IMG/VR virus record: IMGVR_UViG_3300005201_000042
Location: 22,116-86,115 of that record
From: a virus
Taxonomy: Duplodnaviria; Caudoviricetes
Direction: 5' to 3' (one strand)
Length of the DNA: 64,000 bases
In this document: positions 4,891-29,353 of the stretch, one piece after another
How the letters are laid out: every line of letters starts with the position of its first letter
Numbering within the stretch: position 1 is the first letter of the stretch
Translations under genes and position numbers: made by a program
The notes under the pieces: generated by a model
The model's database searches: none
What the model saw: the letters and a program-made list of their open reading frames with translations, nothing else
What the model was told of the DNA's origin: nothing

Positions 4891-5181
4891 ATGGCGGAAC
4901 AAGCTTTATCGGCAATTAACCAAACTTTGGATACTTGGTTTCTAAGTTACACTAAGAAATTGTTTGCGTACTATGGAGAAGGGACTTATGGGCATTCTGC
5001 AGAGACCAACGCTTGGCAAATATCTATTCCAGATAATAATTTGAAAGTGAGTATTGGCTGGTCTGCTGAGCAAGGGGATTATGTTTACATAGTAATCAAA
5101 GATGGTTCTAGAAAGGATGGAAGGGTTCAGAGTTTAAAGGATCTGAAACTTTTATTTCCAGATGTTTTTGGGGGGTCTTAA
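4891..5181 (+). CDS. Hypothetical protein, probably leaderless
   Basis: ATG at 4891 directly after the -10 box, no SD. Confidence 0.65.
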   Translation: MAEQALSAINQTLDTWFLSYTKKLFAYYGEGTYGHSAETNAWQISIPDNNLKVSIGWSAEQGDYVYIVIKDGSRKDGRVQSLKDLKLLFPDVFGGS

Positions 5182-6289
5182 ATTGATTAATGAACAGCAC
5201 TTGAGAAAAGAGATCCATAAATTTACGTCTTCTGTACTTTCTCAAATGTCCGAAGAGCAATTAAATAAACTTAGTAGAGACCTTCAAGAAGATTCTGATA
5301 TGCTTACGTCTTCTACTCAGTTTGTAGATGATTCTGCTAGTAACAATGGCGTTCCTTCTTATTTCATAACAAGTAGTGGGCGTATAGTAGACGATTCATA
5401 CGAAGGCGGTTTATGGGTTTCTCCTCAAGGCAAGGCTTATGAGGTTACAGGGGATCATTCGGAATATATTTTAGAGTATCCCTCTTTATTTGGAATAGAC
5501 GTTTCTGGTTTTGAATCAGACGATACCTTTGGCTTAGATGATTCTGATAGAGATGTTTTATATGAACAAGCTTATTCCAAAGGCTGGGCTAGGGTTCGCA
5601 TTGTTGACGGAGATATATTTGTAGATGTCATCCGTTCAATTAATACAGATAGGTTTCTTTCAAAGGTAGTTCAGTGTATTCTTGATTATGGCGTTCCTTA
5701 TGACTCAGCTATTCATGTTGAAGTGTTAGAGGACTCTGGTCAATATTCTAATTCAAACGAGTCTTTATCTTCTCTGCTCACAAGTCGTTACTCTGCCAAG
5801 GCTGGTCTTTTTAATGTCCAGGCGAAATGGATACAGGGTTTGCTTACGAGGGAAGAAGCTATAGCGGAGTTGGTAAAGACGGGCAAGTCCAGGGAAATAG
5901 CTAATAAGATACTGGACTCTTGGGGTACGAGGTTTTCGAGTTATACACCCTTGCATTCTGGCACGGGTATTGCTAATCTTATAATTAGCTCACCAGACAA
6001 AGATTATGAAGTAGCTAAAAGTGGTACACGTTACTGGTTAGACGGGGTTTGTAAGCGTATACAATCTAATCTTGGGAAGAAGGGTATTAAGGCTACGATA
6101 AGTCCAATAACGAACTTAACCTGGAGGGTTGTCGTGGGTCAGAAGGTTGTCTTTCAAGTTATTTACTCATCCTCTAATAATGTGGACTTCTTTGATTATA
6201 CTTATTTTAATGCCTCTGGGAAATCCTTTTCAGGTCAGGTAAGACGTATGGAAGATTTAAAGGGTTTAATTTCTAAGGTAGGGGTTTGA
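5162..6289 (+). CDS. Modular protein: GGxWxSPxG domain plus C-terminal SPDKDY domain
   Basis: Both domains have paralogues in the 10355 and/or 21399 ORFs; exact start uncertain (TTG near 5183 possible). Confidence 0.7.
   Translation: MFLGGLKLINEQHLRKEIHKFTSSVLSQMSEEQLNKLSRDLQEDSDMLTSSTQFVDDSASNNGVPSYFITSSGRIVDDSYEGGLWVSPQGKAYEVTGDHSEYILEYPSLFGIDVSGFESDDTFGLDDSDRDVLYEQAYSKGWARVRIVDGDIFVDVIRSINTDRFLSKVVQCILDYGVPYDSAIHVEVLEDSGQYSNSNESLSSLLTSRYSAKAGLFNVQAKWIQGLLTREEAIAELVKTGKSREIANKILDSWGTRFSSYTPLHSGTGIANLIISSPDKDYEVAKSGTRYWLDGVCKRIQSNLGKKGIKATISPITNLTWRVVVGQKVVFQVIYSSSNNVDFFDYTYFNASGKSFSGQVRRMEDLKGLISKVGV
5941..5979 (+). promoter_or_regulatory. Class I promoter embedded in coding sequence
   Basis: TTATACACCC-TTGCAT-N17-TAATCT, read in-frame as YTPLHSGTGIANL(IISS). 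Confidence 0.65.
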
Positions 6290-6290
6290 T

Positions 6291-6521
6291 ATGCATGACG
6301 ATGTTGATGAACAGATTCTTGGAGTTTTAAAAAATCTTTCTCCCGAGGCTCTTGCTTGTCGTGTAAAAGAAGTCAATTACTTACGAAAAAAGTACCCTGA
6401 TTTCTTTCCTAGTTCTCAGGTCTCTTCTGGTGTAAAAATTTTAAATGAAGACAGGGTTGCTCTTGACCAGGCTTTTGCAAAATTAGACCAAGAAGGCTTT
6501 AAAAGGTTGGCAAATGAATAA
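6291..6521 (+). CDS. Small hypothetical protein, paralogue of 25012-25344
   Basis: LKNLSPEA...RKKYPDFFPSSQVSSG vs IKSLSPES...RASYPNMFSSSLVTSS; same position in the duplicated cassette. Confidence 0.7.
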   Translation: MHDDVDEQILGVLKNLSPEALACRVKEVNYLRKKYPDFFPSSQVSSGVKILNEDRVALDQAFAKLDQEGFKRLANE

Positions 6522-6884
6522 AGAAGAATTTTTAACTGCTTATCGTACCTTAGTTAAAAGAGCATTTAATTTTTCGGAGATTGGTCGGTGTGAGGGTCTA
6601 TTGGCTTTAGAGTCCCTTGTTGACAAAGATAAGGTTGATAAAAGGGATATTTTGAATATGGTGTTCAGCTTGTAATTGATGGTACGGAGCCTGCTTTTTT
6701 GGATAAGATTTTGTCTAATTTAATATCCTTAGAAGAAAATGCCTATTTAACACATTTTAAAACTATTCAAAAAGAGGCTGTGTTGACTCTTCAGAGTAAT
6801 GCAAATACTCGCCTTCTGATGCTTTTACTAAACTCCTATTCTGATCTTCCATTAAGTGACCCTATCTTCGGTTTGCAAGAATAG
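6514..6884 (+). pseudogene. Frameshifted copy of the MotA-cytoplasmic-domain-like gene
   Basis: MNKEEFLTAYR...GRCEGLLALE then one T missing at ~6650 (GATATTTTGAA) relative to the intact paralogue at 25337; the downstream frame continues FEYGVQLVIDGTEP to TAG 6884. Could be an assembly error. Confidence 0.7.
6829..6880 (+). repeat. 52-bp exact direct repeat (second copy 25656-25707)
   Basis: TAAACTCCTATTCTGATCTTCCATTAAGTGACCCTATCTTCGGTTTGCAAGA is identical in both places. Confidence 0.9.
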
Positions 6885-13003: not shown

Positions 13004-15043
13004 ATGCCGATGTTCACGTCTTTAAAAAGTAGGCTACCGCAGATAGGTGAGAAATTACAAAAGTTTATTTTAGGTGCAGATGACGAAGAGTTAATTTCAA
13101 GGGTAAAAAACTACACTAATCACGCTAGTTATGGAGCAGACATCTGGGGTGATTCTTCCTCTATGCAGACTCTTGGCTTGCTTCGTGAAGTCCCTGCAAT
13201 GCTTCGAGATCCTATTATTCAATCTTGTATCGGTATTATTATGGAGACTTCTTTTCAGATGAATGATAAGAATAAAGTTCTCTGGCCTGTGTCTTCTTAT
13301 GATTCAATCAAGAAGGAGTTAGAAAACTTCCATGAAAAAGTAAACATGAGCCAGCACGCAGTTATTCTGGGGTTTAATCTTTTACCGTGGGGTAATTTGC
13401 CTTACAAGCACCACTTTGATAAAGATGGTAAATTCTCAGACTTTACTCCTATTCCAGACTTCACAAAGGTTGTTCCTGTTGTTGTTTCTGGTAAGACCTT
13501 AGGGTTTATGGTTGGTAATCAGTTTTGTTTCCCTTACGAGTTTTCTTATGCTCAGTTAGAGTTCTATAAAAATCTTGGGGGGATTTACAAAAGTAACTTT
13601 GTACAGTTCTCAGGGAATATGGACGGTAAAGATGTATTCGGAGAGGACTTTCAGAATGAGTTTGTTGTTGCACCTTCTTATTTGTCCACTGCGGCAAGAC
13701 CGTGGAAGAATATAAATATAATTGAAGACGCTCTACTTTTAAATCGAATGGATCAATCTAATTACTACAGAATATTCTCAGTTCTGGTCGGAGGTTCTGT
13801 TACTTCTAAGTCAGCTATAAGGACTCTTAACTACTATCGTAACTTGTTTAAGAAGGTTCGCAGGGTGTCTTATAATTCTTCTGGTATGGCTTCATCTGGT
13901 GTAGGGAATGAGTTTGAGATAATACTTCCTAAAACTGAAAAACAGGGTTTAGAGGTTACTGACGTGGGAGGAACCGTGGATATTAAGGCTCTTAAAGACC
14001 TTGATGTTCAGTACAACAAGCTTTTTGCGGCTCTTAAGGTTCAACCCTCTCAGATTGGTTTTGGAGAGGAGCAGACAAACGCTATCGGGGATACTAATGG
14101 ACAGTCTTACGACCGGCGTTTAGCAAGAACCTGTAAGATGCTGGTTTACTCCGTTCAAAAGACAATCAAGAATTTTGATTATCTATACCTTCGCTCTCGA
14201 GGTTATGATGTTTCTTTAGATGACTGGTCTTATGGTTCTGTTTCTCTTTCTGTGTTGGAGGATCAAGATAGGGGTACAACTCTAAAAACTGCAATTGAAA
14301 ATTTAAAGAGTTTTGCTGAGGTTCTCACTTCTTTACAACTTCAAGAATACAATAAGTCTTATCTGGTTGAATCTGTCTTAGGTTCTGCTCTGTCTTCTGT
14401 TGGAGTGGATGTGAAAGAGCTATTAAAAGTTCCAGAGGGTCAGGAAGCACCTATGGAAGCAGAAGGTGGAGCTGAGGGTGCACCTCCCCTGTTAGCATCT
14501 AGGCAACCCAACCAAATAAATTATAAGAACGCCTATCTAACAAGTATGTTTGATACTATGGAGACAGTTAAGCTAGCTTCTCCAGAGATTATACAGTCCA
14601 TGCGAGCTTCTATGTTGGGAAAGGCAGATTCAAATGTTAAAATGATTTCATCTTCAAAAGGTTCTAATATTTTGCCAGCTGCTATTTTGGATGATACTAC
14701 TGCTTATACCTATCCTGAAGAAGCCCAGGTTGATTTAACTGGTCAAGTTGGTTTTATTCAAGGTGAGACTTCACAGATTGTTAGTGACTTGAATAAAGCT
14801 AAATCAAAGAAGTGTGAGGATATGGCTACACTTGATTTTAATACGTCTATTTTAGTTCCAAGTGATTTAAAGATGACTCTTGGAGATTACAACACTGCTG
14901 GTATCCGTGCTTTGGGTACAGGTTACATTAACTCAAGGGGTGAGGTAATTCTCACGAACAAGGCTGATGTGGCTACTTTCTTATCGATGAAGCGGTCTGG
15001 TTTACTGTCTTGTTTGGTTTCGCGGCTTTATCAGGTTCCGTAG
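13004..15043 (+). CDS. Portal protein, T4 gp20-like
   Basis: IIEDALLLNR...YRIFSVLVG and FEIILP...GLEVTDVGG...LDVQYNKLFAALKVQPSQ match gp20-family blocks. Confidence 0.85.
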   Translation: MPMFTSLKSRLPQIGEKLQKFILGADDEELISRVKNYTNHASYGADIWGDSSSMQTLGLLREVPAMLRDPIIQSCIGIIMETSFQMNDKNKVLWPVSSYDSIKKELENFHEKVNMSQHAVILGFNLLPWGNLPYKHHFDKDGKFSDFTPIPDFTKVVPVVVSGKTLGFMVGNQFCFPYEFSYAQLEFYKNLGGIYKSNFVQFSGNMDGKDVFGEDFQNEFVVAPSYLSTAARPWKNINIIEDALLLNRMDQSNYYRIFSVLVGGSVTSKSAIRTLNYYRNLFKKVRRVSYNSSGMASSGVGNEFEIILPKTEKQGLEVTDVGGTVDIKALKDLDVQYNKLFAALKVQPSQIGFGEEQTNAIGDTNGQSYDRRLARTCKMLVYSVQKTIKNFDYLYLRSRGYDVSLDDWSYGSVSLSVLEDQDRGTTLKTAIENLKSFAEVLTSLQLQEYNKSYLVESVLGSALSSVGVDVKELLKVPEGQEAPMEAEGGAEGAPPLLASRQPNQINYKNAYLTSMFDTMETVKLASPEIIQSMRASMLGKADSNVKMISSSKGSNILPAAILDDTTAYTYPEEAQVDLTGQVGFIQGETSQIVSDLNKAKSKKCEDMATLDFNTSILVPSDLKMTLGDYNTAGIRALGTGYINSRGEVILTNKADVATFLSMKRSGLLSCLVSRLYQVP

Positions 15044-15660: not shown

Positions 15661-16716
15661 ATGGGACAATGGATTTTCGGTAAGGCATCCCCTGTTTCTT
15701 TGTCTGATAAAGGCAAGCAGTTATTAAAATCTTCAGGTTGTATTGTAAGTGATTATGTTGGTGAGTCTGGTTCTTCCAGCAATGGTCTTCTCTGTACCTT
15801 TAAATCTGTTCCTATTGCCTTCTACGACGTTCCTACGCTCAATCAGATGGTATTTAGCCGTAAGCTCTGGGAATGTCTGTTAGAGAACCAATATCTCAAA
15901 CAATCAATGGAGAACGGTTCACACTATGGAGAGGCTAAACACGCCGACCGTGATGAGGTTTATCTTGATGAAATAGCTTGCAGGGTGAACAAGTTCTGGT
16001 TCGGTGATAACAATATTCTTTTGGGTGATGTAGACATTCCAGACACTCCTAAAGGACGAATTGTTCATTCCCTTGCTAAAATCAGCAGGGTTGGTATATC
16101 TTCCAGGGGTTTTGGCGAGTTAAGGAACAGGGACGATGGTTTAAAGGACGTTATTCCTGACCAGTATATGCACGTCTGCTGGGACATGGTTGCTTTCCCT
16201 GCTGTGCCTGACGCTCACATGACTTTAATTACTGGGGATTCACCTTATGACGAGACAATCAATATGTCCACGGAGCTTCGTAACTTGATAAGGGAGGCTT
16301 ATCAAAGGAATCCTAAAGACAAGGCTTTACAAAAGTTGGTTTCCACTGCAAAGATACCCACTGGTAAGAAGTACGATTTTTCACTTAAAAATGATCTAGA
16401 CAGAGCAATAATCTCTCATGAGTTAAAGAGGAGAAATAGTTATCCACCCTTGCATTCTAGAGGCATAAGTCGTATAATGAGTTCTAGAAGAACAATTTCT
16501 GCAGCAGTGGCTTATATTTCACAGGCAGTAGGTTCTTTTTATACTGGGGCTTCTTGGAGATTGTCTGTTGAAAATCTACCTGAGGCTACTTTGGATAATA
16601 AGGGTTCTGTTCAGTCTCTTAGTATTTACTATAAGGTAACTAATAAAGAGAGTAGAAAAACTTTTAATATCCGTGCAGTGGTTTCTTCAAATGGTTTTCA
16701 GTTAAGGAGGGGTTAG
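15661..16716 (+). CDS. Prohead core protease, T4 gp21-like, with C-terminal extension
   Basis: GEAKH (catalytic His), TPKGRI, GISSRGFG (catalytic Ser), WDMVAFPA. Confidence 0.88.
   Translation: MGQWIFGKASPVSLSDKGKQLLKSSGCIVSDYVGESGSSSNGLLCTFKSVPIAFYDVPTLNQMVFSRKLWECLLENQYLKQSMENGSHYGEAKHADRDEVYLDEIACRVNKFWFGDNNILLGDVDIPDTPKGRIVHSLAKISRVGISSRGFGELRNRDDGLKDVIPDQYMHVCWDMVAFPAVPDAHMTLITGDSPYDETINMSTELRNLIREAYQRNPKDKALQKLVSTAKIPTGKKYDFSLKNDLDRAIISHELKRRNSYPPLHSRGISRIMSSRRTISAAVAYISQAVGSFYTGASWRLSVENLPEATLDNKGSVQSLSIYYKVTNKESRKTFNIRAVVSSNGFQLRRG
16440..16478 (+). promoter_or_regulatory. Class I promoter embedded in the protease gene
   Basis: TTATCCACCC-TTGCAT-N17-TATAAT, read as YPPLHSRGISRIM(SS). 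Confidence 0.7.
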
Positions 16717-17662: not shown

Positions 17663-19129
17663 ATGATTGAATCAATGGATGAACAGGGTGTACGTTCTGC
17701 TCTGGCTAGTCGGTTTCAGAATGTAGCTGCTTCGGCAGGTGGGGGTAAACCCAGCATATATCAAGATCTAATTGCAAGTTCTGCCGCAGCTTACCAGAGG
17801 AAGTGGAAAAAAGAACTTCCCCAGTCTGTTAAAGCGGTTCTAATGCAGTCTCTTGATAAGATGACCCAGATATTCCAGAACCGTGATCGGGTTTCGAGAG
17901 AAACAATCATGTCTGCGGTGTCAGATATAGCTAAAGTAGACAATCCTATTACTCTGGCTTACAACCTGATGTCAATTCTTATTCCTAACTTTGCTTACAC
18001 TGAGGTTATCGGAATTCAGCCCATTCCTACAAAGGAATCTCCTGTTTTCTATCCGAGGATTGTGGCGAATGAGAATAGGAATAATGTGACAAAAGGCTCT
18101 GTTCTGCTTGGGTCAACAAACTGGACAGCAAGTAACTCGTTCACAACTAACCAGGTAGCTTCTCCTGTGACTGTTGGTAATACTACGGCTCTTTCTTTTA
18201 CTGCACCTGAAGGTAATATTACGCCGGGTAGCCTTGCGATTACATTGAAGCTTGTAGGCTTGGGTACTTACGTGGTGTTTGATGATGGTAAAGGGGTTTT
18301 AGTTCCTATTTCTGGTGTCACTGCCTCTACGGCTGGTACAGTAAACTACGCTACTGGTGGGGTTTCTTTAACCTTAGCCGCAGCGGCTCCAGCTAACTCA
18401 TCGGCATCCGCTCGCTATCGTTATGAGTTTGCAGATACTACAAAACCTGCACAGGCTAAGCTTGAATGGGTAACTGAGAAAGTACGTGCAGAACCCTACA
18501 GAATTCGCACAATTTACGAACTTGATGATTTCTTCCAGGTCAAGCAAGTTCTGAGCAACTACGATATTGACTCGGTTCTTTCAAGTTCGGTGGCAGGTTA
18601 TATAAACAAAGAAATCAGCGGGAATGTCTTTGATGACATTCTTCTGAAGACTGATGCTGACTTTGCGTGGAATTCGTCTAATCCGAGTGGTGTTGCTTGG
18701 GCGTTGCACAGGTTGTCTTTAATGCAGACATTTGTAAGGGCTGGCAATGGTATTCGTCAGAACATTGCACGTGCTGGAGGTAATATTGCCATCTGCGGTA
18801 ATGAGTGGATGAACTTCATTGAGACTTTGGGTGACGATCTTTGGAAACCAGAGAAGTTTACTGAAGAACCAATAGGGCCTTACGTTGCAGGTACTTTGGC
18901 TGGTAAATTCAAGATTCTTAAGAATCAGGATTACCCTGATACCAAAGCGGCAATGGTGTACAAAAGGGATGACGTGGATGCTTCAATTGTTGGTGGTGTG
19001 TTCATCGGTTTGTATGCTACTAACCCAGTGGCAATGGACGACCTTAAGGTTATTCAGGGCATGGGCACTCAGTTTGGGTGGCTCAAGACCTTTGATAACT
19101 CAATAGTGTCTCTTACGTTACAGCAGTAG
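17663..19129 (+). CDS. Major capsid protein, T4 gp23-like (HK97 fold)
   Basis: LIPNFAYTEVIGIQPI (cf. IA.D.CGVQPM), AKLEWVTEKVRAEPYRI, INKEISGNVFDDI; GAGG RBS; followed by a terminator. Confidence 0.9.
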   Translation: MIESMDEQGVRSALASRFQNVAASAGGGKPSIYQDLIASSAAAYQRKWKKELPQSVKAVLMQSLDKMTQIFQNRDRVSRETIMSAVSDIAKVDNPITLAYNLMSILIPNFAYTEVIGIQPIPTKESPVFYPRIVANENRNNVTKGSVLLGSTNWTASNSFTTNQVASPVTVGNTTALSFTAPEGNITPGSLAITLKLVGLGTYVVFDDGKGVLVPISGVTASTAGTVNYATGGVSLTLAAAAPANSSASARYRYEFADTTKPAQAKLEWVTEKVRAEPYRIRTIYELDDFFQVKQVLSNYDIDSVLSSSVAGYINKEISGNVFDDILLKTDADFAWNSSNPSGVAWALHRLSLMQTFVRAGNGIRQNIARAGGNIAICGNEWMNFIETLGDDLWKPEKFTEEPIGPYVAGTLAGKFKILKNQDYPDTKAAMVYKRDDVDASIVGGVFIGLYATNPVAMDDLKVIQGMGTQFGWLKTFDNSIVSLTLQQ

Positions 19130-20778: not shown

Positions 20779-21355
20779 ATGAAAAAAGAAAAAGATGAGC
20801 AATTGAAAGAAGCTATTATTGACAATCTGCTTTACATTGTGGCTCAAGCTCTTAAGCAAGTAGATCGGTTGAGATCTGGGGATTTAGACGGAACTCTTTT
20901 GAACGACGTTAGGTCATCAAGAGAAAGCATTGAAAAATTGGCTTATGTAAGAGCCAGAGAGCTTATCTGAAAAATGTTTAAATCTTAATTAAAGGAGGGA
21001 TGAAATGAGTACAAATGGGTTTTCCGAAAAAGAATTCTTAGAGGGTAAGGTTTTACGTTATCTTATATTTCTTAAAGATGACCTGATGGAGAGAGGTTAC
21101 ACGGAAGAAGGTGCTGAGAAAGCTATTGCAGGTGCTTTACCTTACTGTATATTCCAACATGCACAATTAAACAAAATAGGTTAGCTTATGAAAAGTAAGT
21201 ACTCTGTTGAGAAGAGAACCGCTGACGAACGCTTTACTCTTACAATTCCAGGTTTGGACTATGCTGTTGGGGATGTTTACTTTGTTTTAAAAGAGCATGA
21301 GCAAGTTGTCGCTTGGGCACATACAGAGGATGGTGCTTGGGCTTGTAGACTCTAA
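20779..21355 (+). CDS. Accessory cassette of three small ORFs (20779-20970, 21004-21183, 21188-21355)
   Basis: Strong RBS (AAAGGAG) at the first two; bounded by a class I promoter and a terminator. The last two ORFs were read manually. Confidence 0.65.
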
Positions 21356-21393
21356 CTTAACGCCATCCTTCGGGATGGCTTTCGTTTTATATA
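21352..21393 (+). terminator. UUCG-loop terminator fused to a class III promoter (repeat of 26240-26282)
   Basis: CTAACTTAACGCCATCC-TTCG-GGATGGCTTT..GTTTTATATA; near-identical second copy. Confidence 0.85.
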
Positions 21394-21398
21394 CTAAT

Positions 21399-24300
21399 AT
21401 GAATAATTTTGTCTCTGTGTCTTCAAAGCCTTTAGTTATACGAATATCATCCTCTGCTAATCCAGGCTATATTTCAAAAGCTGTAACTACTGTTAAGAGG
21501 TTTCTAGACAACGTTGGTGCTTGGTATAAGTATCACAGAAGCAATAAATCGAATAGTGAGTATTTTCTGGTTGAACGTCCGAATGACAGGATGTCTCCGG
21601 AGGTTGACGTTCGTGTTTCAGATCACAATCTCCCACACGTATATGATCAACCAGACCTAGATATTGACCCCAGTTCTCCAGGTCGTATTGGTTCTTACTC
21701 TGTTCCAGAGGCTCTAGACTTGCTTGAGGGCTTCTTTGACGGGGAATACGTAAATATAGTTGAGGGTGAGCCTATTGTGTCTTCTAAAACTTATACACCC
21801 TTGTATTATGGCAATCGCAAGGGTATTATAAAGAGTAGTAGACGGGAGGCAACGCTTGAACGGTTTAACAAGATTGAGCAAACTCAACCAGATGTATGGC
21901 GTATATTACATACAAAGGCATCCGATCCTAGTATGCAGGGTTATAATACCCTTTTGGGTGTGGGTTCTTGGGACTATCACCAAGATTCAACTTTAGCTGG
22001 TTTGATTAGGGATTCTTGGAAAAAAGGTTATACTACTTTCTTCTTGGAAGACAACGAGGTTGTTCATGGTTTTTTAGCTTTTATGGTTAGTGGTGATACA
22101 ATTTATAATGTTAAGACTTTTTCAGTGGTTAGGGACGTTAAAAACGGAGAGGATTTAAAGAGGTTTGTGAGGGATTACGTGCCAAACTATAATTTAGTTT
22201 GGGAGGCACGTGAGGACAACAAAGCATGTAAGCGTTACGAGGATATAACGAGGTTGTATGGTGGTACTGTTACACCGAGTACAGAAAATCCTAACCATCT
22301 CATTTTTAAGATTAGAAAGGGGTCTGTGCCGAATTCCACACGGGTTTCTTTACATTCTCATAGCAGGTTGGAGCAAAGCTATAAAAATAGGTTTTCCTCA
22401 TCCTCACCCACGGTTTGCAGTGAGTTCGGAGCTTCTTTTAAGCAGTTTTCACTGGAGAATAGTTCTTCTGCAATCAAGAATAGACGATTTACAAGAAACA
22501 TTAAAATCTTAAGTACTTTTAACGAACAAGCCTATTCAGATTGGTTTTTAGAAGAATCCTCTAGGTTTCTTGGTAAATCTGAGGATGAAGTTCTTTCTCT
22601 CCCAAATTACAAAGATAAGCTAGACACTTTTTTGGATGAGGCACGTGAATGGCATTCTATGTCTCAAGAGGAAAGGGAAAGGTGGTATTTGTCAGGTGCT
22701 GGTAGAACTATTTGTACGTCTTCTGTTGTGCGTTTTTTATGGGCGGATAAGTCTTATCCATCCTTGTATTCTAAACTTTCTCAAGGTAATATTAACAAGT
22801 CTATGGGTCGTAAGTTTATTTTTAATTCCAAAGAGATGCTCTCAGGCGGTGTTTGGATAAGCCCTTCTGGAGATATGTTTGGTGTTCCTTTGACTCATAT
22901 AAAAGCTGTAATAGAAGACCCTGCTAAGTTTGGTTTATCTGTTGAACAGTTAAAGGCTATTTACAATAAGCATAACGAGGGTATTGGATCAGAGGGGGAC
23001 GCAAGAGACGAGGTTATTTCTTTGCTCATTTTTAATGGCTGGGTAAGAATTAGGTTTTACCCAGGCGAGTATTTTCATGTAGAGTTAAATAAATTAAGTC
23101 AAAAATATAAAAATGTTTTATTCTCTTGGGCTTCTAAAGTGATCAGTAAGTCTCCAGAGAAGAAAGCTCTTTCTGTCATTATTTGCGAGAGACTAGGAAA
23201 TTTTGAATATTCTTTTAAATTAGAAGATTTGCAGGTTTCTTTTGTTTCTTCTGGTAAAACTGGAGATTTAGCTTATTGGATAAGTCCTTCGGGAGAGCTT
23301 ATAAGTACGCATGGTAGTCATACAAGTACAGTAGTGGAAACTCCTGAGGTTTTTGGTTTTACAGAGGAAGAAGTTAATACTTTATTTTCGGTCGGTGAGG
23401 AGGAAGCTGTTCTTAAGTGTTTAATAGGTAACGGTTGGATAAGGCTTCGTTATCAGGCTGGTTGTTATTTTGTCTCTGTGTTGTCTTTGTCTCCAGAGAC
23501 CCAGCAAAGGTTGCAGAACTGGGCTTTGCATGAGGGGAACGAAGATAAGGATACTACAGTTATTATTGAGATGTTGGTTTCATTTAACGTTATAAAGGTT
23601 ACTTTACGAGATGTTTCTAGAGGTGTTTTTTCACATGATGCTTCCCTGCCTATCCATTCATCGGTTGATTATGATGAGTGGAGTCTTATTCCTAGTAGTC
23701 TTAGAACAATAGGAAACGCACAACTAATCGAGTCTGCTACTATTCAAGACCTATTAGACGAGAACGATAAGAACCCAGAGTTTACTCACAGGGCAGAGCA
23801 TTTAGACGCTACGAAGGCTCAGGGTGATTCAGAAATTACTCGCTGTTACGCTTCCACAGTCGAGTTAAGAACCAAGTCTGAGCATTTTAAGGAGAATAAT
23901 ACCTATTATCGGCAATGGGTACTTTTTAAGGATTTTGTTTCAATAGCACGGGACAAGAAGATCAAACTTGAGGACGCTGTGGATTATGCTATTAACTTTT
24001 GTGATATAACTATTAGATGTTCCTGCCCTGATTTTTTGTATAGAGGGTACTCTTACATGGGTGATCAGCTTGGTTATCTTTATGGTCTCCCAAGAGAGAA
24101 GCGGTTTCCTAAAAGAAATAACCCCAATCTTAAGCTTGCGGTTTGTAAGCACTCGGATATAGCATTAGAACATCTCCTTAAAAATAAAGAGAAACTTATA
24201 AAAATGTTTGGTGTATATTACAAGAGGATAAAAGAGACTCCACCTGACACTATGATTGCTGTCCCTGCTAAAGCCGCAGAGGAAAAGAAAGAGGAGTCTA

Positions 24301-25010
24301 TTGAGGACTTCTTAGCTGGTTTTGACGAGGATGGAAATAAAATATCAGAAGAAAAAGCAGACCTTAAAGAAGATGACGGTGTTGAGACTATTTCAGAACA
24401 AGACCCTGACTCTGGTGTTATTAAAATAGACACAAAACTTGCCGAGGGTAATTTACCGCCAGACCAGCAGGTTAAGTACGCAGGCGATGAAGATAAACCT
24501 GTGGACGAAAACACTCTAGAAAATGTGGCTGATTCTATTTCCGATGAGGAAGAAGAGGAATTAGCCACTCAGATTGACGAAGCTTCTCTTTCTGGTTCTC
24601 CTAGGAATGATAATGAGAAGTTCATGCACGAGTGGTCTTTCCAGCGGTTTAAACCTAATACTTATACAGACTTGTATCCTAATAATTATCATGCTAGTCT
24701 TATAACAAGTTCACCAGACAAAGATTATGAACCTGCTAAGTCTTATGTAAGAAACTGGTTGGACAGTATTTGTAAGAGTGTTCAAGCGAACCTAAAAAAG
24801 AAGGGTGTTGTTTCTACAATAAGTCCTGTAACAGGTTTGACTTGGAAAGTAGCAGTAGGTCAGAAGGATGTTCTTAAAATAGACCTTTCCTTCCCTTCTG
24901 GTAATTACTGCTTTAGTTATACATATTTAGATAGAACAAGTAAATCATTTTCAGGAAAGACTATGAAAATGGATGCTTTAATACAGCTTGTTCCAAAGGT
25001 TGGGGTTTGA
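21399..25010 (+). CDS. Large multidomain (polyvalent-like) protein: RVSDH domain, GNAT-like domain, two GGxWxSPxG domains, SWIM-type Zn finger, acidic region, SPDKDY domain
   Basis: Start moved from 21297 to 21399 because the upstream part spans a terminator. CSCPDF...CKH is SWIM-like; domains are separated by [IVL]-X-S-S. Confidence 0.75.
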   Translation: MNNFVSVSSKPLVIRISSSANPGYISKAVTTVKRFLDNVGAWYKYHRSNKSNSEYFLVERPNDRMSPEVDVRVSDHNLPHVYDQPDLDIDPSSPGRIGSYSVPEALDLLEGFFDGEYVNIVEGEPIVSSKTYTPLYYGNRKGIIKSSRREATLERFNKIEQTQPDVWRILHTKASDPSMQGYNTLLGVGSWDYHQDSTLAGLIRDSWKKGYTTFFLEDNEVVHGFLAFMVSGDTIYNVKTFSVVRDVKNGEDLKRFVRDYVPNYNLVWEAREDNKACKRYEDITRLYGGTVTPSTENPNHLIFKIRKGSVPNSTRVSLHSHSRLEQSYKNRFSSSSPTVCSEFGASFKQFSLENSSSAIKNRRFTRNIKILSTFNEQAYSDWFLEESSRFLGKSEDEVLSLPNYKDKLDTFLDEAREWHSMSQEERERWYLSGAGRTICTSSVVRFLWADKSYPSLYSKLSQGNINKSMGRKFIFNSKEMLSGGVWISPSGDMFGVPLTHIKAVIEDPAKFGLSVEQLKAIYNKHNEGIGSEGDARDEVISLLIFNGWVRIRFYPGEYFHVELNKLSQKYKNVLFSWASKVISKSPEKKALSVIICERLGNFEYSFKLEDLQVSFVSSGKTGDLAYWISPSGELISTHGSHTSTVVETPEVFGFTEEEVNTLFSVGEEEAVLKCLIGNGWIRLRYQAGCYFVSVLSLSPETQQRLQNWALHEGNEDKDTTVIIEMLVSFNVIKVTLRDVSRGVFSHDASLPIHSSVDYDEWSLIPSSLRTIGNAQLIESATIQDLLDENDKNPEFTHRAEHLDATKAQGDSEITRCYASTVELRTKSEHFKENNTYYRQWVLFKDFVSIARDKKIKLEDAVDYAINFCDITIRCSCPDFLYRGYSYMGDQLGYLYGLPREKRFPKRNNPNLKLAVCKHSDIALEHLLKNKEKLIKMFGVYYKRIKETPPDTMIAVPAKAAEEKKEESIEDFLAGFDEDGNKISEEKADLKEDDGVETISEQDPDSGVIKIDTKLAEGNLPPDQQVKYAGDEDKPVDENTLENVADSISDEEEEELATQIDEASLSGSPRNDNEKFMHEWSFQRFKPNTYTDLYPNNYHASLITSSPDKDYEPAKSYVRNWLDSICKSVQANLKKKGVVSTISPVTGLTWKVAVGQKDVLKIDLSFPSGNYCFSYTYLDRTSKSFSGKTMKMDALIQLVPKVGV
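21791..21829 (+). promoter_or_regulatory. Class I promoter embedded in coding sequence
   Basis: TTATACACCC-TTGTAT-N17-TATTAT, read as YTPLYYGNRKGII(KSS). Confidence 0.65.
24662..24700 (+). promoter_or_regulatory. Class I promoter embedded in coding sequence
   Basis: TTATACAGAC-TTGTAT-N17-TAGTCT, read as YTDLYPNNYHASL(ITSS). Confidence 0.6.
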
Positions 25011-25011
25011 T

Positions 25012-25344
25012 ATGCCTAAGTTTAAAGATGAGACTGACAGGCTTTTGTTTGAGGGTATAAAAAGTCTCTCTCCTGAGTCTTTTGTTAGGCTTAAGGGTGA
25101 GATTGAGCAAGCAAGAGCTTCTTATCCAAATATGTTTTCTAGTTCTCTTGTTACTAGCTCAGTTAATGGAAAGCAAAGAAGGAAATCTGGAAAACCAACA
25201 GAAGATGAAGAAATTAGATCTGATAATTCTCACTTGGTTGTTCGGGGTCTAAATAAAGAGGAAAGAATCGCTTTGTTGTTAAAAGCTCATCCTTCTTATT
25301 CTTATGAGGCTATTTCTTCTCTCGTAGATGGCAATTATGAATAA
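25012..25344 (+). CDS. Small hypothetical protein, paralogue of 6291-6521
   Basis: Same GGGGTTTGATATG junction as copy 1. Confidence 0.7.
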   Translation: MPKFKDETDRLLFEGIKSLSPESFVRLKGEIEQARASYPNMFSSSLVTSSVNGKQRRKSGKPTEDEEIRSDNSHLVVRGLNKEERIALLLKAHPSYSYEAISSLVDGNYE

Positions 25345-25711
25345 TAAAGAAGAATTTTTAACGGCTTATCGTGCTGTTGTTGAACGAGCTTTAAAGCTTT
25401 CTGAAGTGGCTCGGCGTGAGGGTTTATTAGCTTTAGAAGAATCTATTGACGTGGACAAAGCTAGGAATCGAGATGTTTTCGAATATGGGCTTCAGTTTGT
25501 TGTCGATGGTACAGAGCCAGCAATACTAAATAAGATATTATCCAATATAATTGAGCAAGAAGAGAACGTTTATAAATCGCATTTAATGGTCATTCAAAAA
25601 GAGGCTGTTTTGGCTATCCAAGAAGGAATGACTGTTAGACTTCTTGCTTGTCTTTTAAACTCCTATTCTGATCTTCCATTAAGTGACCCTATCTTCGGTT
25701 TGCAAGATTAA
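25337..25711 (+). CDS. Stand-alone MotA-cytoplasmic-domain-like protein (no TM helices)
   Basis: LSEVARREGLLALEE...GLQFVVDGTEPAILNKILSNII matches the MotA/PomA cytoplasmic loop signature. Confidence 0.75.
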   Translation: MNNKEEFLTAYRAVVERALKLSEVARREGLLALEESIDVDKARNRDVFEYGLQFVVDGTEPAILNKILSNIIEQEENVYKSHLMVIQKEAVLAIQEGMTVRLLACLLNSYSDLPLSDPIFGLQD

Positions 25712-25790: not shown

Positions 25791-26222
25791 ATGAAAAAGG
25801 AATTTAATTTTAGGTCAGATGGTTTGGAGATTAACGGGAAATTTTATAAAGGTCAGTGGTTAAGTGACCGTTGGCATAACGGAGAAGTTACTTCCACACT
25901 CCCTGCACCACCTGTAGAGTTCCATGTTCCTCAGAAATCGAACTTTCCAAAGAATACAGGGCTGGATTTTGTTCTTGGTACCCGTCCGAATAGAGTAGGA
26001 ATTATTTTTGATGTGGTAGTTTTTGATACTAACCATGAATTTTACAATAAGGCTTTAAAATCTTGGGTTGCTTATGTAACCAACGATTTAACTGAAACTG
26101 CGTCTAACTTTAAAGATTTGCTTACAAAAGATGATTACCCTGAGTATGCAAAGAAGTATGTATCTGATCTTCTTGATAATAACCTGAGAAATCAAGCTAT
26201 TTTGAAAAGTTTGGTGGCTTAA
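25791..26222 (+). CDS. Single-gene accessory cassette, hypothetical protein
   Basis: Lies between a class I promoter and the UUCG terminator. Confidence 0.65.
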   Translation: MKKEFNFRSDGLEINGKFYKGQWLSDRWHNGEVTSTLPAPPVEFHVPQKSNFPKNTGLDFVLGTRPNRVGIIFDVVVFDTNHEFYNKALKSWVAYVTNDLTETASNFKDLLTKDDYPEYAKKYVSDLLDNNLRNQAILKSLVA

Positions 26223-26239: not shown

Positions 26240-26282
26240 CTAACTTAACGCCATCCTTCGGGATGGCTTTTTGTTTTATATA
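26240..26282 (+). terminator. UUCG-loop terminator fused to a class III promoter
   Basis: GCCATCC-TTCG-GGATGGC-TTTTT then TTTATATA. Confidence 0.85.
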
Positions 26283-27793: not shown

Positions 27794-29353
27794 ATGGATA
27801 AAAAATCGGGAGTTTATTACTATTTATCAGATAATTCACTTCGTGTTGGCGGTAGCTCTTCTTTTGCAGGCATCGTTCCTATGTACACTGTAAAAGGTGA
27901 CGTGGGTAAATTAATCAAGGTAAATGCTAGGGATTATCGGGAGAAATTGGGGTTTGACCTATCTTACAATCAAAATTATGTGGGTTTAGATAGAATTCTT
28001 TCTTCAGTGGCAAATGTTGAAGTCTTACGTTGTAACTTAAGTCCGACAGTTGCTTATAAGATATGGGAGGAGGATGGTGATCCTCTTGTTTACGTTCCTG
28101 ATGCTTATGGCAGTGCAGACGCTGTAGAGGGGGCTTCTCTTTTAAATACTGTTTGGGTAGCAATGACTTCTCCAGGGTCATGGGGGGATAATCATTTTGT
28201 TTGTTTTTCTGTGGAGGGTACTATAGGGAATATAGATGCAGTCTATACTCTTCATAATTATACTGTGGTTAAGGGGGTCTCTTCACTTATTGGAAACTAC
28301 AAATTCTCTCTTTCTGAGGCCTCAGATATTTATTATAAGAATATTTCCTTTGGGGATATAGTTTTTGGTTTTAAAGGTGATTTTCCGTCTGACCCATCAT
28401 TTTTTGTAGATGTTGCTCGTGATGGTCTTCCTAACGATCCTATTTACAGATTGCATCCAGGTAGTAATGGCTCTAAGGTGTCCTCTGCTCTGGATGTTTC
28501 TGGTCTTTTTGCTGCTATAGACAAGTCACCGGCAAATATAGTGGTAATGAATGGTTTTATTGAGGCTCCTGAAAATAGGGATCAGGGGGTGGCTGTTATC
28601 CAAGCTATCTATAATTACTGTGGTCAACAAGACAGGTCAGTTCTATTGGATGCCCCTGTTCTTACAGAGTCAGGTATATTAAGGGCTTCTGAGGGTTTAT
28701 ATGAGTGGTCTAAAAATCTTCTAAGCAGGGAGTTTGGGCAGTTTGTTCAGGTAGCAGCCAGACCAGATCAAATGGTTATTGACGATGTTACTATCCTAAT
28801 ACAGCCATCTGTTTTCTTGTTTCAGATTTACGCAAGGATGTTTGCTAATTACGGTCATATTAATTTTGTTCCTGCAGGTAATACTTACGGGTCTGTCTCG
28901 GTTAGTAATCTTATGGATTCTGATTTCCATTTGTACGGAGATGAGCTTAAGACAAATAGGATTAATTACTTGACTGATACTTCTCAGGGAGTTTGTATGT
29001 GGGAGTATCGAACCTTGTACAATCAAGGAGGTTCAGACTTATCCTATTCTAATACTCCATATATTTTAAGAGATTTAAAAGGGCGATTGATGTCATTTAT
29101 GGAAAATTTTACTTTTAGGTATTCTACTCCTATTGACTTACTAACAATTCGTTCTGGTTTAGATTCTATATTAAGTTACTTTGTAAGGAATTTTTTCTTA
29201 GTGAATTATGTTTTGAATGTCCCTTCTTTTGAGGAAGCTCAAGCGGCTGGTAGGGAATTAGATATTGAAATAGCTGTTGCAGTTATTAATTCTGCAGATG
29301 TAATTACCCTCAAGGTTAATCTCCAGAATGCGGCTAGTTTAAGGGCATCTTAA
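27794..29353 (+). CDS. Contractile tail sheath protein
   Basis: SGVYYYLSDNS N-terminus, VLLDAP, QPS, ELKTNRINYL, GVCMWEYRTL, ELDIEIAV - sheath-family blocks. Confidence 0.85.
   Translation: MDKKSGVYYYLSDNSLRVGGSSSFAGIVPMYTVKGDVGKLIKVNARDYREKLGFDLSYNQNYVGLDRILSSVANVEVLRCNLSPTVAYKIWEEDGDPLVYVPDAYGSADAVEGASLLNTVWVAMTSPGSWGDNHFVCFSVEGTIGNIDAVYTLHNYTVVKGVSSLIGNYKFSLSEASDIYYKNISFGDIVFGFKGDFPSDPSFFVDVARDGLPNDPIYRLHPGSNGSKVSSALDVSGLFAAIDKSPANIVVMNGFIEAPENRDQGVAVIQAIYNYCGQQDRSVLLDAPVLTESGILRASEGLYEWSKNLLSREFGQFVQVAARPDQMVIDDVTILIQPSVFLFQIYARMFANYGHINFVPAGNTYGSVSVSNLMDSDFHLYGDELKTNRINYLTDTSQGVCMWEYRTLYNQGGSDLSYSNTPYILRDLKGRLMSFMENFTFRYSTPIDLLTIRSGLDSILSYFVRNFFLVNYVLNVPSFEEAQAAGRELDIEIAVAVINSADVITLKVNLQNAASLRAS

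What the first reader, a model, noticed from the sequence alone, without database searches (positions are those of the whole stretch)
25337..25711. Phage-encoded soluble MotA cytoplasmic domain: candidate flagellar motor decoy
Seen: a 124-aa protein without TM helices carrying ARREGLLALE...GLQFVVDGTEP, downstream of a class I promoter, with a second (frameshifted) copy. Established: this MotA/PomA segment holds the Arg and Glu (E. coli R90/E98) that contact FliG to generate torque; both are retained in both copies. Inference: a stator mimic that binds FliG and brakes or unhooks the motor, changing motility or blocking superinfection by flagellum-dependent phage. That would matter in a spirochaete host. 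Stand-alone homologues may also exist in host genomes, so recent capture is possible.
Basis: partly seen in the sequence, partly recalled or inferred. Interest (0 to 1): 0.8.

Follow-up and report, generated by a model that had tools for sequence, protein, structure and literature searches.

The report
Phage-borne soluble MotA stator domain
A large T4-like phage carries a small membrane-free copy of the part of the flagellar stator protein MotA that pushes on the rotor; it was captured from an undescribed Treponema family of soluble MotA domains genetically tied to soluble FliG rotor domains, so it probably binds a FliG-type domain in the infected cell.

Summary
Window 25337-25711 (+) encodes a 124-aa acidic protein with no membrane helix. 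Its AlphaFold model (pLDDT 95.8) overlays the cytoplasmic domain of solved MotA/PomA stators (Z 15.9, 2.2 Å, 108 residues; next unrelated fold Z 4.0). It equals the MotA TM2-TM3 loop joined to the post-TM4 tail, with all four membrane helices gone. The torque residues Arg90 and Glu98 (E. coli numbering) are kept. A second copy (6514-6884) has a one-base frameshift in a T run.

New here: the protein belongs to a large family of about 125-aa soluble MotA domains ("sMotA"), found mainly in termite-gut-type Treponema. I found no paper on it. In host genomes sMotA lies beside, or is fused to, soluble FliG_C domains that keep the torque-helix charges. Some proteins carry five tandem sMotA repeats plus FliG_C. 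The phage record has sMotA but no FliG_C.

Best reading (about 0.55): a captured stator mimic that binds a host FliG-type domain, either rotor FliG or its soluble paralogue, and so interferes with the motor or its regulation. Binding and any effect on motility are untested; the complex predictor was unavailable. The scan had noted this same stretch once before, on the same genome.

The parts
25337..25711 (+). sMotA copy 1. An intact 124-aa membrane-free MotA cytoplasmic domain (TM2-TM3 loop plus post-TM4 tail), with R26 = EcR90 and E34 = EcE98.
24988..25344 (+). Upstream ORFan of 110-118 aa (start at TTG 24988 or ATG 25012). Its stop overlaps the sMotA start in ATGAATAA, which suggests translational coupling. 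It shows no similarity to FliG_C.
24662..24700 (+). Degenerate copy (3 mismatches) of the plus-strand repeat TTATMCACCCTTGYATT, followed by TATAAC. Function unverified.
25791..26222 (+). Downstream ORF of 143 aa with no family. It is the last gene of the apparent three-gene cassette.
26250..26277 (+). Terminator-like hairpin GCCATCC-TTCG-GGATGGC followed by a T run, closing the cassette.
6514..6884 (+). sMotA copy 2. About 65% identical to copy 1 at the protein level. One base is missing in the T run at 6650-6653, so the frame shifts from +1 to +3. dN/dS is 0.24-0.31 on both sides of the break.
6291..6522 (+). Paralogue (76 aa, 34% identity) of the upstream ORFan, with the same ATGAATAA overlap onto sMotA copy 2.
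5941..5957 (+). Exact copy of the repeated promoter-like motif, upstream of the copy 2 module.

Best explanation
The gene encodes a soluble, membrane-free copy of the MotA cytoplasmic domain, the part of the flagellar stator that contacts the FliG torque helix. A large T4-like myovirus acquired it from a Treponema-lineage family of soluble MotA domains (sMotA) and then duplicated it together with a small upstream ORF. In host genomes sMotA partners with soluble FliG_C domains. The phage carries only the MotA half. I propose that the phage protein, made from its own small cassette, uses the conserved Arg26/Glu34 face to bind a host FliG_C-type domain. The target would be the torque helix of rotor FliG, the soluble FliG_C paralogue, or both. 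By competing with the membrane stator or with host sMotA, it would uncouple or re-tune the motor or its regulatory module. Shown here: domain identity, loss of the membrane helices, retained charges, origin from the host family, the genetic link of the family to FliG_C, and purifying selection. Inferred: the physical binding, which target is used, and the effect on motility.
For: - **Fold.** The AF2 model has pLDDT 95.8 and pTM 0.90. VIA-align gives Z 15.9, rmsd 2.2 Å and 108 aligned residues against 8ucs_C (MotAB bound to FliG). The top ten hits are all MotA/PomA; the next fold scores Z 4.0.
- **Architecture.** The family profile matches MotA residues 78-136 and 221-249 of 8ucs and skips TM3-TM4. 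No membrane segment is present.
- **Torque residues.** R26 and E34 align to E. coli R90 and E98. They are at least 90% conserved across 59 family members. MotA R90/E98 pair with FliG D289/R281 (PMC7564593).
- **Neighbourhood.** In four distinct host loci sMotA directly follows a 166-182-aa FliG_C gene. In T. primitia ZAS-10 three of four sMotA loci have FliG_C adjacent or fused.
- **Fusions.** There are sMotA+FliG_C proteins of 240-256 aa and proteins with five sMotA repeats plus FliG_C.
- **Partner side.** The soluble FliG_C partners keep R281 and D288/D289. In the fusions the R90 equivalent is invariant in 45 of 45 sequences. The E98 and R281 equivalents change together, but only in one clade.
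- **Phage half only.** The phage record has no FliG_C.
- **Selection and origin.** dN/dS between the two copies is 0.24-0.31. The two copies are sisters (99/92) and group, with weaker support (84/80), beside a clade of FliG_C-paired Treponema sequences.
- **Recurrence.** Two other viral records carry their own sMotA genes.
Against: No binding test was possible. The AF2 model of a natural sMotA-FliG_C fusion gave confident domains but a pTM of only 0.59, so it does not show the two domains docked. The function of the host sMotA/FliG_C module is unknown and may not concern the motor. The host is inferred only from the homology of this one gene; the phage capsid gene was not found in 201 genomes of the family that contains T. 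primitia. A monomeric domain may bind FliG weakly compared with the MotA pentamer. Copy 2 is frameshifted in the record.
Confidence: 0.55

Rival explanations
1. Decoy for proteins that bind the stator rather than for the rotor. The soluble domain would soak up regulators that dock on the cytoplasmic base of MotA, such as the FapA clutch of spirochaetes or PilZ-type c-di-GMP brakes. That would change how many stators are engaged.
For: [quoted passage not shown] The phage protein reproduces that surface. Two host loci lie next to HD-GYP, EAL or response-regulator genes.
Against: FapA contacts all five MotA subunits, and a single domain offers only part of that surface. The consistent genomic partner of sMotA is FliG_C, not a FapA-like or PilZ gene.
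Confidence: 0.12
2. The host sMotA/FliG_C proteins are not motor regulators. They would form a separate system, for example baits or decoys of motor parts attached to TPR, LRR, MORN or AAA modules that sense or absorb phage factors. The phage copy would then interfere with that system.
For: sMotA, FliG_C and FliM domains are fused to TPR, LRR and MORN repeats. In T. primitia an LRR+AAA gene lies next to sMotA. The family is patchy (9 of 121 sampled genomes) with up to 9 copies per genome. Some copies sit in integrase-bearing elements.
Against: No known defence domain was found, and PADLOC was not run. Retention of both sides of the torque interface fits a motor-related contact more simply.
Confidence: 0.18
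3. A passenger gene with no role in infection: a recently captured host fragment that is decaying.
For: Copy 2 is frameshifted. The upstream ORF has no homologue outside this record.
Against: Copy 1 is intact. dN/dS is 0.24-0.31 on both sides of the break in copy 2. The overlapping start/stop arrangement is kept in both modules. A related sequence, P0003, groups with the phage copies. Other viral records carry the domain.
Confidence: 0.08

Closest known systems
MotA/PomA flagellar stator A subunit (PF01618; PDB 8UCS, 6YSF, 6YKM, 8BRD)
   Same: It has the same cytoplasmic-domain fold (Z up to 15.9) at 31-33% identity to Clostridium and Paenibacillus MotA. It keeps the R90 and E98 equivalents and the VVDG and AVLAIQ motifs.
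   Different: It lacks all four membrane helices, so it has no ion channel and no MotB partner. It is 124 aa instead of about 260. It scores far below the curated cut-offs (39 bits against 340; Pfam 12.5 against 22.9). It is phage-encoded.
Uncharacterised soluble MotA-domain family of Treponema and other Spirochaetota (proteins annotated 'hypothetical' or 'flagellar motor component MotA')
   Same: It is 50-62% identical to family members, has the same length and motifs, and is nested inside this family in the tree.
   Different: Host members are paired or fused with FliG_C. The phage copy has an ORFan upstream instead, and no FliG_C was found in the record.
EpsE flagellar clutch of Bacillus subtilis (PMC3000366)
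   Same: The proposed logic is the same: a soluble protein that binds FliG and disengages the rotor from the stator.
   Different: EpsE is a glycosyltransferase-family protein with no homology to MotA. It is a host regulator, not a mimic of a motor part.
FapA clutch of Borrelia burgdorferi (bioRxiv 10.64898/2026.10.14.759253)
   Same: It acts at the same interface, between the cytoplasmic base of MotA and FliG, in a spirochaete motor.
   Different: FapA masks MotA and has a β-solenoid/coiled-coil fold. Here the protein is a copy of the MotA surface itself.

Membership tests
MotA/PomA stator subunit | Four transmembrane helices forming the ion channel together with MotB | tested here: not met
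   The maximum 19-residue hydropathy is 1.35, and the profile alignment skips MotA residues 137-220. The protein is 124 aa.
MotA/PomA stator subunit | Fold of the cytoplasmic domain (TM2-TM3 loop plus C-terminal helices) | tested here: met
   Z 15.9, rmsd 2.2 Å, 108 residues against 8ucs_C. All top ten hits are MotA/PomA.
MotA/PomA stator subunit | Conserved charged residues R90 and E98 that face FliG | tested here: met
   R26 and E34 align to R90 and E98. They are nearly invariant in the family.
MotA/PomA stator subunit | Score above the curated family cut-off | tested here: not met
   Pfam MotA_ExbB gives 12.5 bits against a cut-off of 22.9. NCBIfam MotA gives 39 bits against 340.
MotA/PomA stator subunit | Adjacent motB gene | tested here: not met
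   The flanking ORFs have no MotB or OmpA hit. The rest of the record was not searched for MotB.
Soluble MotA-domain family (sMotA, uncharacterised) | A membrane-free protein or repeat of about 120-130 aa with the RREGLLALE, FVVDG, KILSNI and QKEAVLAIQ motifs | tested here: met
   347 homologues at 50-62% identity, alignment A1, and nesting in the tree.
Soluble MotA-domain family (sMotA, uncharacterised) | Adjacent or fused FliG_C domain | tested here: not met
   PF01706 was not found in the 86-kb phage record. The upstream ORF is not FliG_C-like. The record is only about 60% complete.
FliG-binding clutch or brake proteins (functional class: EpsE, YcgR) | Direct binding to FliG with loss of torque | not testable with these tools
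This needs biochemistry and motility assays.

The most novel reading that the evidence does not exclude
Termite-gut treponemes (and some other bacteria) have a soluble copy of the rotor-stator interface. It is built from MotA cytoplasmic domains, in some proteins five in one chain to match the MotA pentamer, and FliG_C domains. It forms a previously unknown layer of flagellar control. Phages have repeatedly taken the MotA half to jam the motor or this control layer. That would be the first viral mimic of a flagellar stator.
Probability: 0.3. Interest if true: 0.85.

Novelty: new variant of a known kind. Interest (0 to 1): 0.72.

Why it matters
No phage protein that imitates a flagellar motor part was found in six full-text literature searches, and no paper described a soluble MotA domain. 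If the phage protein binds FliG, it would be a natural, genetically encoded inhibitor of the rotor-stator contact. It would also be a soluble handle for structural work on an interface that is hard to capture. The host family is a finding of its own. It has hundreds of members, fusions to FliG_C, FliM, TPR and LRR domains, and five-repeat chains. This suggests an unrecognised regulatory or decoy system built from motor parts in spirochaetes, whose motility underlies their ecology and, in related species, disease.

Tried and rejected
- **Complex prediction.** Complex prediction (phage sMotA with T. primitia FliG residues 212-352) was busy twice and then declared unavailable. No result.
- **Docking in a natural fusion.** AF2 of the sMotA-FliG_C fusion P0191 gave pLDDT 88 but pTM 0.59, so it says nothing either way about docking.
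- **Upstream ORF as a diverged FliG_C.** hhalign gave probability 0.4% and blastp found nothing. The ORF has no homologue among 5.8 billion proteins. Rejected.
- **Phage databases.** INPHARED had no DNA or protein match. A single-sequence scan of IMG/VR found none; the profile scan found two.
- **Related prophages.** The phage capsid gene was not found in 201 genomes of the family that contains T. primitia. This neither supports nor excludes the host.
- **Foldseek alone.** It gave only weak E-values (0.018) because of the long gap over TM3-TM4. VIA-align resolved this.
- **N-terminus as a T4-style capsid-targeting signal.** Host homologues share the same N-terminus. Rejected.
- **Atlas.** It did not hold the phage sequence, so a host homologue was used instead.

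Full report
**1. The observation.** Window 25337-25711 (+) is an open frame of 124 codons. It carries ARREGLLALE at residues 25-34 and GLQFVVDGTEP at 51-61. The product is acidic (pI 4.7, 14 kDa). Its most hydrophobic 19-residue window averages 1.35 on the Kyte-Doolittle scale, whereas E. coli MotA has several windows above 1.6. It therefore has no membrane helix.

The similarity to MotA is not chance.
- phmmer against PDB sequences finds MotA chains at E 2e-8.
- The family profile finds them at E 5e-12.
- NCBIfam MotA, PomA and MotP models match at E 4e-10 to 2e-7, far below their full-length cut-offs.
- Pfam MotA_ExbB reaches only 12.5 bits.

The second copy is real. It lies at 6514-6884, with 62-66% protein identity split over two frames. 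The DNA alignment shows one base missing in a T run at 6650-6653.

**2. What the protein is.** The family profile aligns to two separate parts of Clostridium MotA (8ucs). Profile positions 11-72 match residues 78-136, the loop between TM2 and TM3. Positions 83-111 match residues 221-249, the segment after TM4. The protein is therefore the whole MotA cytoplasmic domain with all four membrane helices removed, not just a loop fragment.

AlphaFold2 with a 59-sequence alignment gives an all-helical model with pLDDT 95.8 and pTM 0.90. VIA-align places it on MotA of 8ucs, a MotAB stator bound to FliG, at Z 15.9, rmsd 2.2 Å and 108 residues. The ten best entries are all MotA or PomA, and the next fold scores Z 4.0. 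Foldseek alone ranked the same chains first, but with weak E-values because of the long gap.

Profile alignment to E. coli MotA, fetched from NC_000913.3, puts R26 on R90 and E34 on E98. Those two residues pair with FliG D289 and R281 (PMC7564593). Copy 2 reads GRCEGLLALE and keeps both.

**3. The phage and the cassette.** The window is part of an 86-kb IMG/VR virus record estimated to be 60% complete. All long ORFs are on the plus strand. It has a T4-type portal (13004-15043), a prohead protease (15661-16716), a Gp23-type capsid protein (17663-19129) and a tail sheath (27794-29353). No related phage was found in INPHARED.

The sMotA gene sits in a small cassette between head and tail genes.
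- A degenerate copy of a plus-strand repeat lies at 24662. The repeat, TTATMCACCCTTGYATT, has 8 copies against 0.07 expected.
- An ORFan runs from 24988 to 25344. Its stop overlaps the sMotA start in ATGAATAA.
- sMotA follows, then an unknown ORF at 25791-26222.
- A hairpin with a T run closes the cassette at 26250.

About 1 kb has been duplicated: the C-terminal module of the preceding large protein, the small ORF and sMotA (5880-6884 against 24600-25711). The two sMotA copies are sisters in the tree (99/92). dN/dS between them is 0.31 before the frameshift and 0.24 after it. Both halves of copy 2 were therefore under purifying selection for most of their divergence. The frameshift is either recent, an assembly error in a homopolymer, or bypassed. 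It could not be checked against reads.

**4. Relatives: an undescribed soluble family.** A word-indexed search found 347 proteins of about 125 aa at 50-62% identity. Almost all come from metagenomes. A few are from MAGs labelled Treponema or Spirochaetales, and many are auto-annotated 'flagellar motor component MotA'. The exhaustive profile search found 1366 proteins at E ≤ 1e-3 and 187 at E ≤ 1e-30.

The genomic context is the key result.
- On four distinct chromosomal loci the small gene directly follows a 166-182-aa gene with a FliG_C domain. The pair sits among unrelated housekeeping genes, not in flagellar operons.
- One 21.5-kb contig carries two sMotA genes, three FliG_C genes and a FliM gene.
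- The cultured Treponema primitia ZAS-10 has seven matches. One is its true 262-aa MotA. Three of its four sMotA loci have a FliG_C domain next door or in the same protein.
- Many proteins fuse the two domains. One subfamily of 240-256 aa is sMotA plus FliG_C.
- Six cluster representatives have exactly five tandem sMotA repeats, the number of MotA subunits in a stator. Four of the five I scanned also carry one or two FliG_C domains.
- Other fusions add FliG_M, FliM, TPR, LRR or MORN modules.

The soluble FliG_C partners keep the torque-helix charges R281 and D288/D289, mapped on E. coli FliG. In 45 fusion proteins the R90 equivalent is invariant. The E98 and R281 equivalents change together, acidic with Arg and Thr with Asn, but this rests on essentially one clade.

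The family is patchy. Matches at sMotA level were found in 9 of 121 sampled genomes of the T. primitia family, with up to nine copies per genome. The ESM Atlas lists several clusters of 108-151-aa 'hypothetical proteins' with this fold, mostly from Spirochaetota. It also lists a 309-aa FliG_C cluster from Bacillota that matches the same fold. Six full-text literature searches found no paper on a soluble MotA domain or a phage stator mimic.

**5. The phage copy within the family.** The phage pair, together with P0003, forms a supported clade (99/90). That clade groups, with weaker support (84/80), beside a clade of FliG_C-paired Treponema sequences. The gene thus came from the host family and not from a full-length motA. 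The phage record contains no FliG_C. Its upstream ORF is not FliG_C-like and has no homologue elsewhere. Two other IMG/VR records carry their own versions: L012 ORF 7977-8324 (115 aa, 49% identity) and L013 ORF 7860-8342 (160 aa, 31% identity). Neither record has FliG_C. A close relative, P0012, lies in an integrase-bearing element. The host of the phage is inferred only from this gene. The capsid gene was not found in 201 genomes of the family that contains T. primitia.

**6. Mechanism.** Both sides of the electrostatic rotor-stator contact are conserved in soluble proteins that are encoded together or fused. The simplest reading is that sMotA and FliG_C domains bind each other through the canonical interface. 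A phage that expresses only the MotA half would compete for FliG_C-type domains, either the rotor torque helix or the soluble paralogue. This would uncouple stators or disturb whatever the host module controls. That part is inference.

Direct tests failed or were uninformative. The complex predictor was unavailable. The AF2 model of a natural fusion had confident domains but pTM 0.59, so it does not show docking.

A serious rival comes from recent in situ work. In Borrelia the clutch protein FapA binds the cytoplasmic base of MotA and masks R89, D97 and R235. A soluble MotA surface could instead titrate such regulators. A third possibility is that the host family is a decoy or sensor system built from motor parts. 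That is suggested by the TPR, LRR and AAA partners and by the patchy, multi-copy distribution.

**7. Verdict.** The identity as a captured soluble stator domain is secure. The decoy idea is plausible and is now backed by gene-fusion and neighbourhood evidence, but binding and phenotype remain untested. The kind of protein is known (a MotA domain). The stand-alone soluble form, its link to soluble FliG_C, the five-repeat chains and its presence in phages are new as far as I could find.

Noticed in passing
window 6830-6880 and 25657-25707: The last 51 nt of the two sMotA copies are 100% identical, while the rest of the genes are about 70% identical. This could be recent gene conversion or a conserved DNA/RNA element. 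The block occurs only at these two places in the window.
   Followed up: partly
window 4848, 5941, 16440, 21791, 22754, 42605, 44188, 52054 (+): The motif TTATMCACCCTTGYATT occurs 8 times, all on the plus strand (0.07 expected), often inside long ORFs. A TATAAT-like box follows 17-23 nt later. It is probably a phage promoter class, but this is unverified.
   Followed up: partly
window 5880-6290 and 24600-25010: The duplication that carries sMotA also includes the C-terminal module (about 130 aa) of the large upstream proteins (5162-6289 and 21297-25010). Those two proteins therefore share a tail module.
   Followed up: no
P0121-P0126 (metagenomic proteins): These proteins have exactly five tandem soluble MotA domains, the MotA pentamer number. 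P0121, P0122, P0123 and P0125 also carry one or two FliG_C domains, and P0121 carries TPR repeats and FliG_M as well. P0126 was not scanned.
   Followed up: partly
L096:2391-6455 (Treponema primitia ZAS-10): This locus encodes an LRR+AAA-ATPase protein (784 aa), then sMotA (122 aa), then a 344-aa protein with an N-terminal FliG_C domain and an unknown C-terminal part.
   Followed up: no
contig of P0046/P0078 (ENA ERZ27257348, 21.5 kb, no DNA held): This island holds two sMotA genes, three FliG_C genes, a full FliM and many small ORFs without Pfam hits. It may be a mobile element that collects motor-part paralogues.
   Followed up: no
L010:8288-13431 and L101:5946-7544: Host sMotA/FliG_C genes lie next to HD-GYP, EAL, response-regulator and dCache genes in two loci. 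This is a weak hint of a link to c-di-GMP signalling.
   Followed up: no
L012:7977-8324 and L013:7860-8342: Two other IMG/VR records, flagged as proviruses of 86.6 and 53.9 kb, carry their own soluble MotA-domain genes with the RREGLL motif. The tree does not place them with this phage's copies (long branches). Neither record has FliG_C.
   Followed up: partly
alignment A5 (sMotA-FliG_C fusions): The MotA E98 equivalent and the FliG R281 equivalent change together, Glu/Asp with Arg and Thr with Asn. The change is concentrated in one clade, so it is roughly one evolutionary event.
   Followed up: partly
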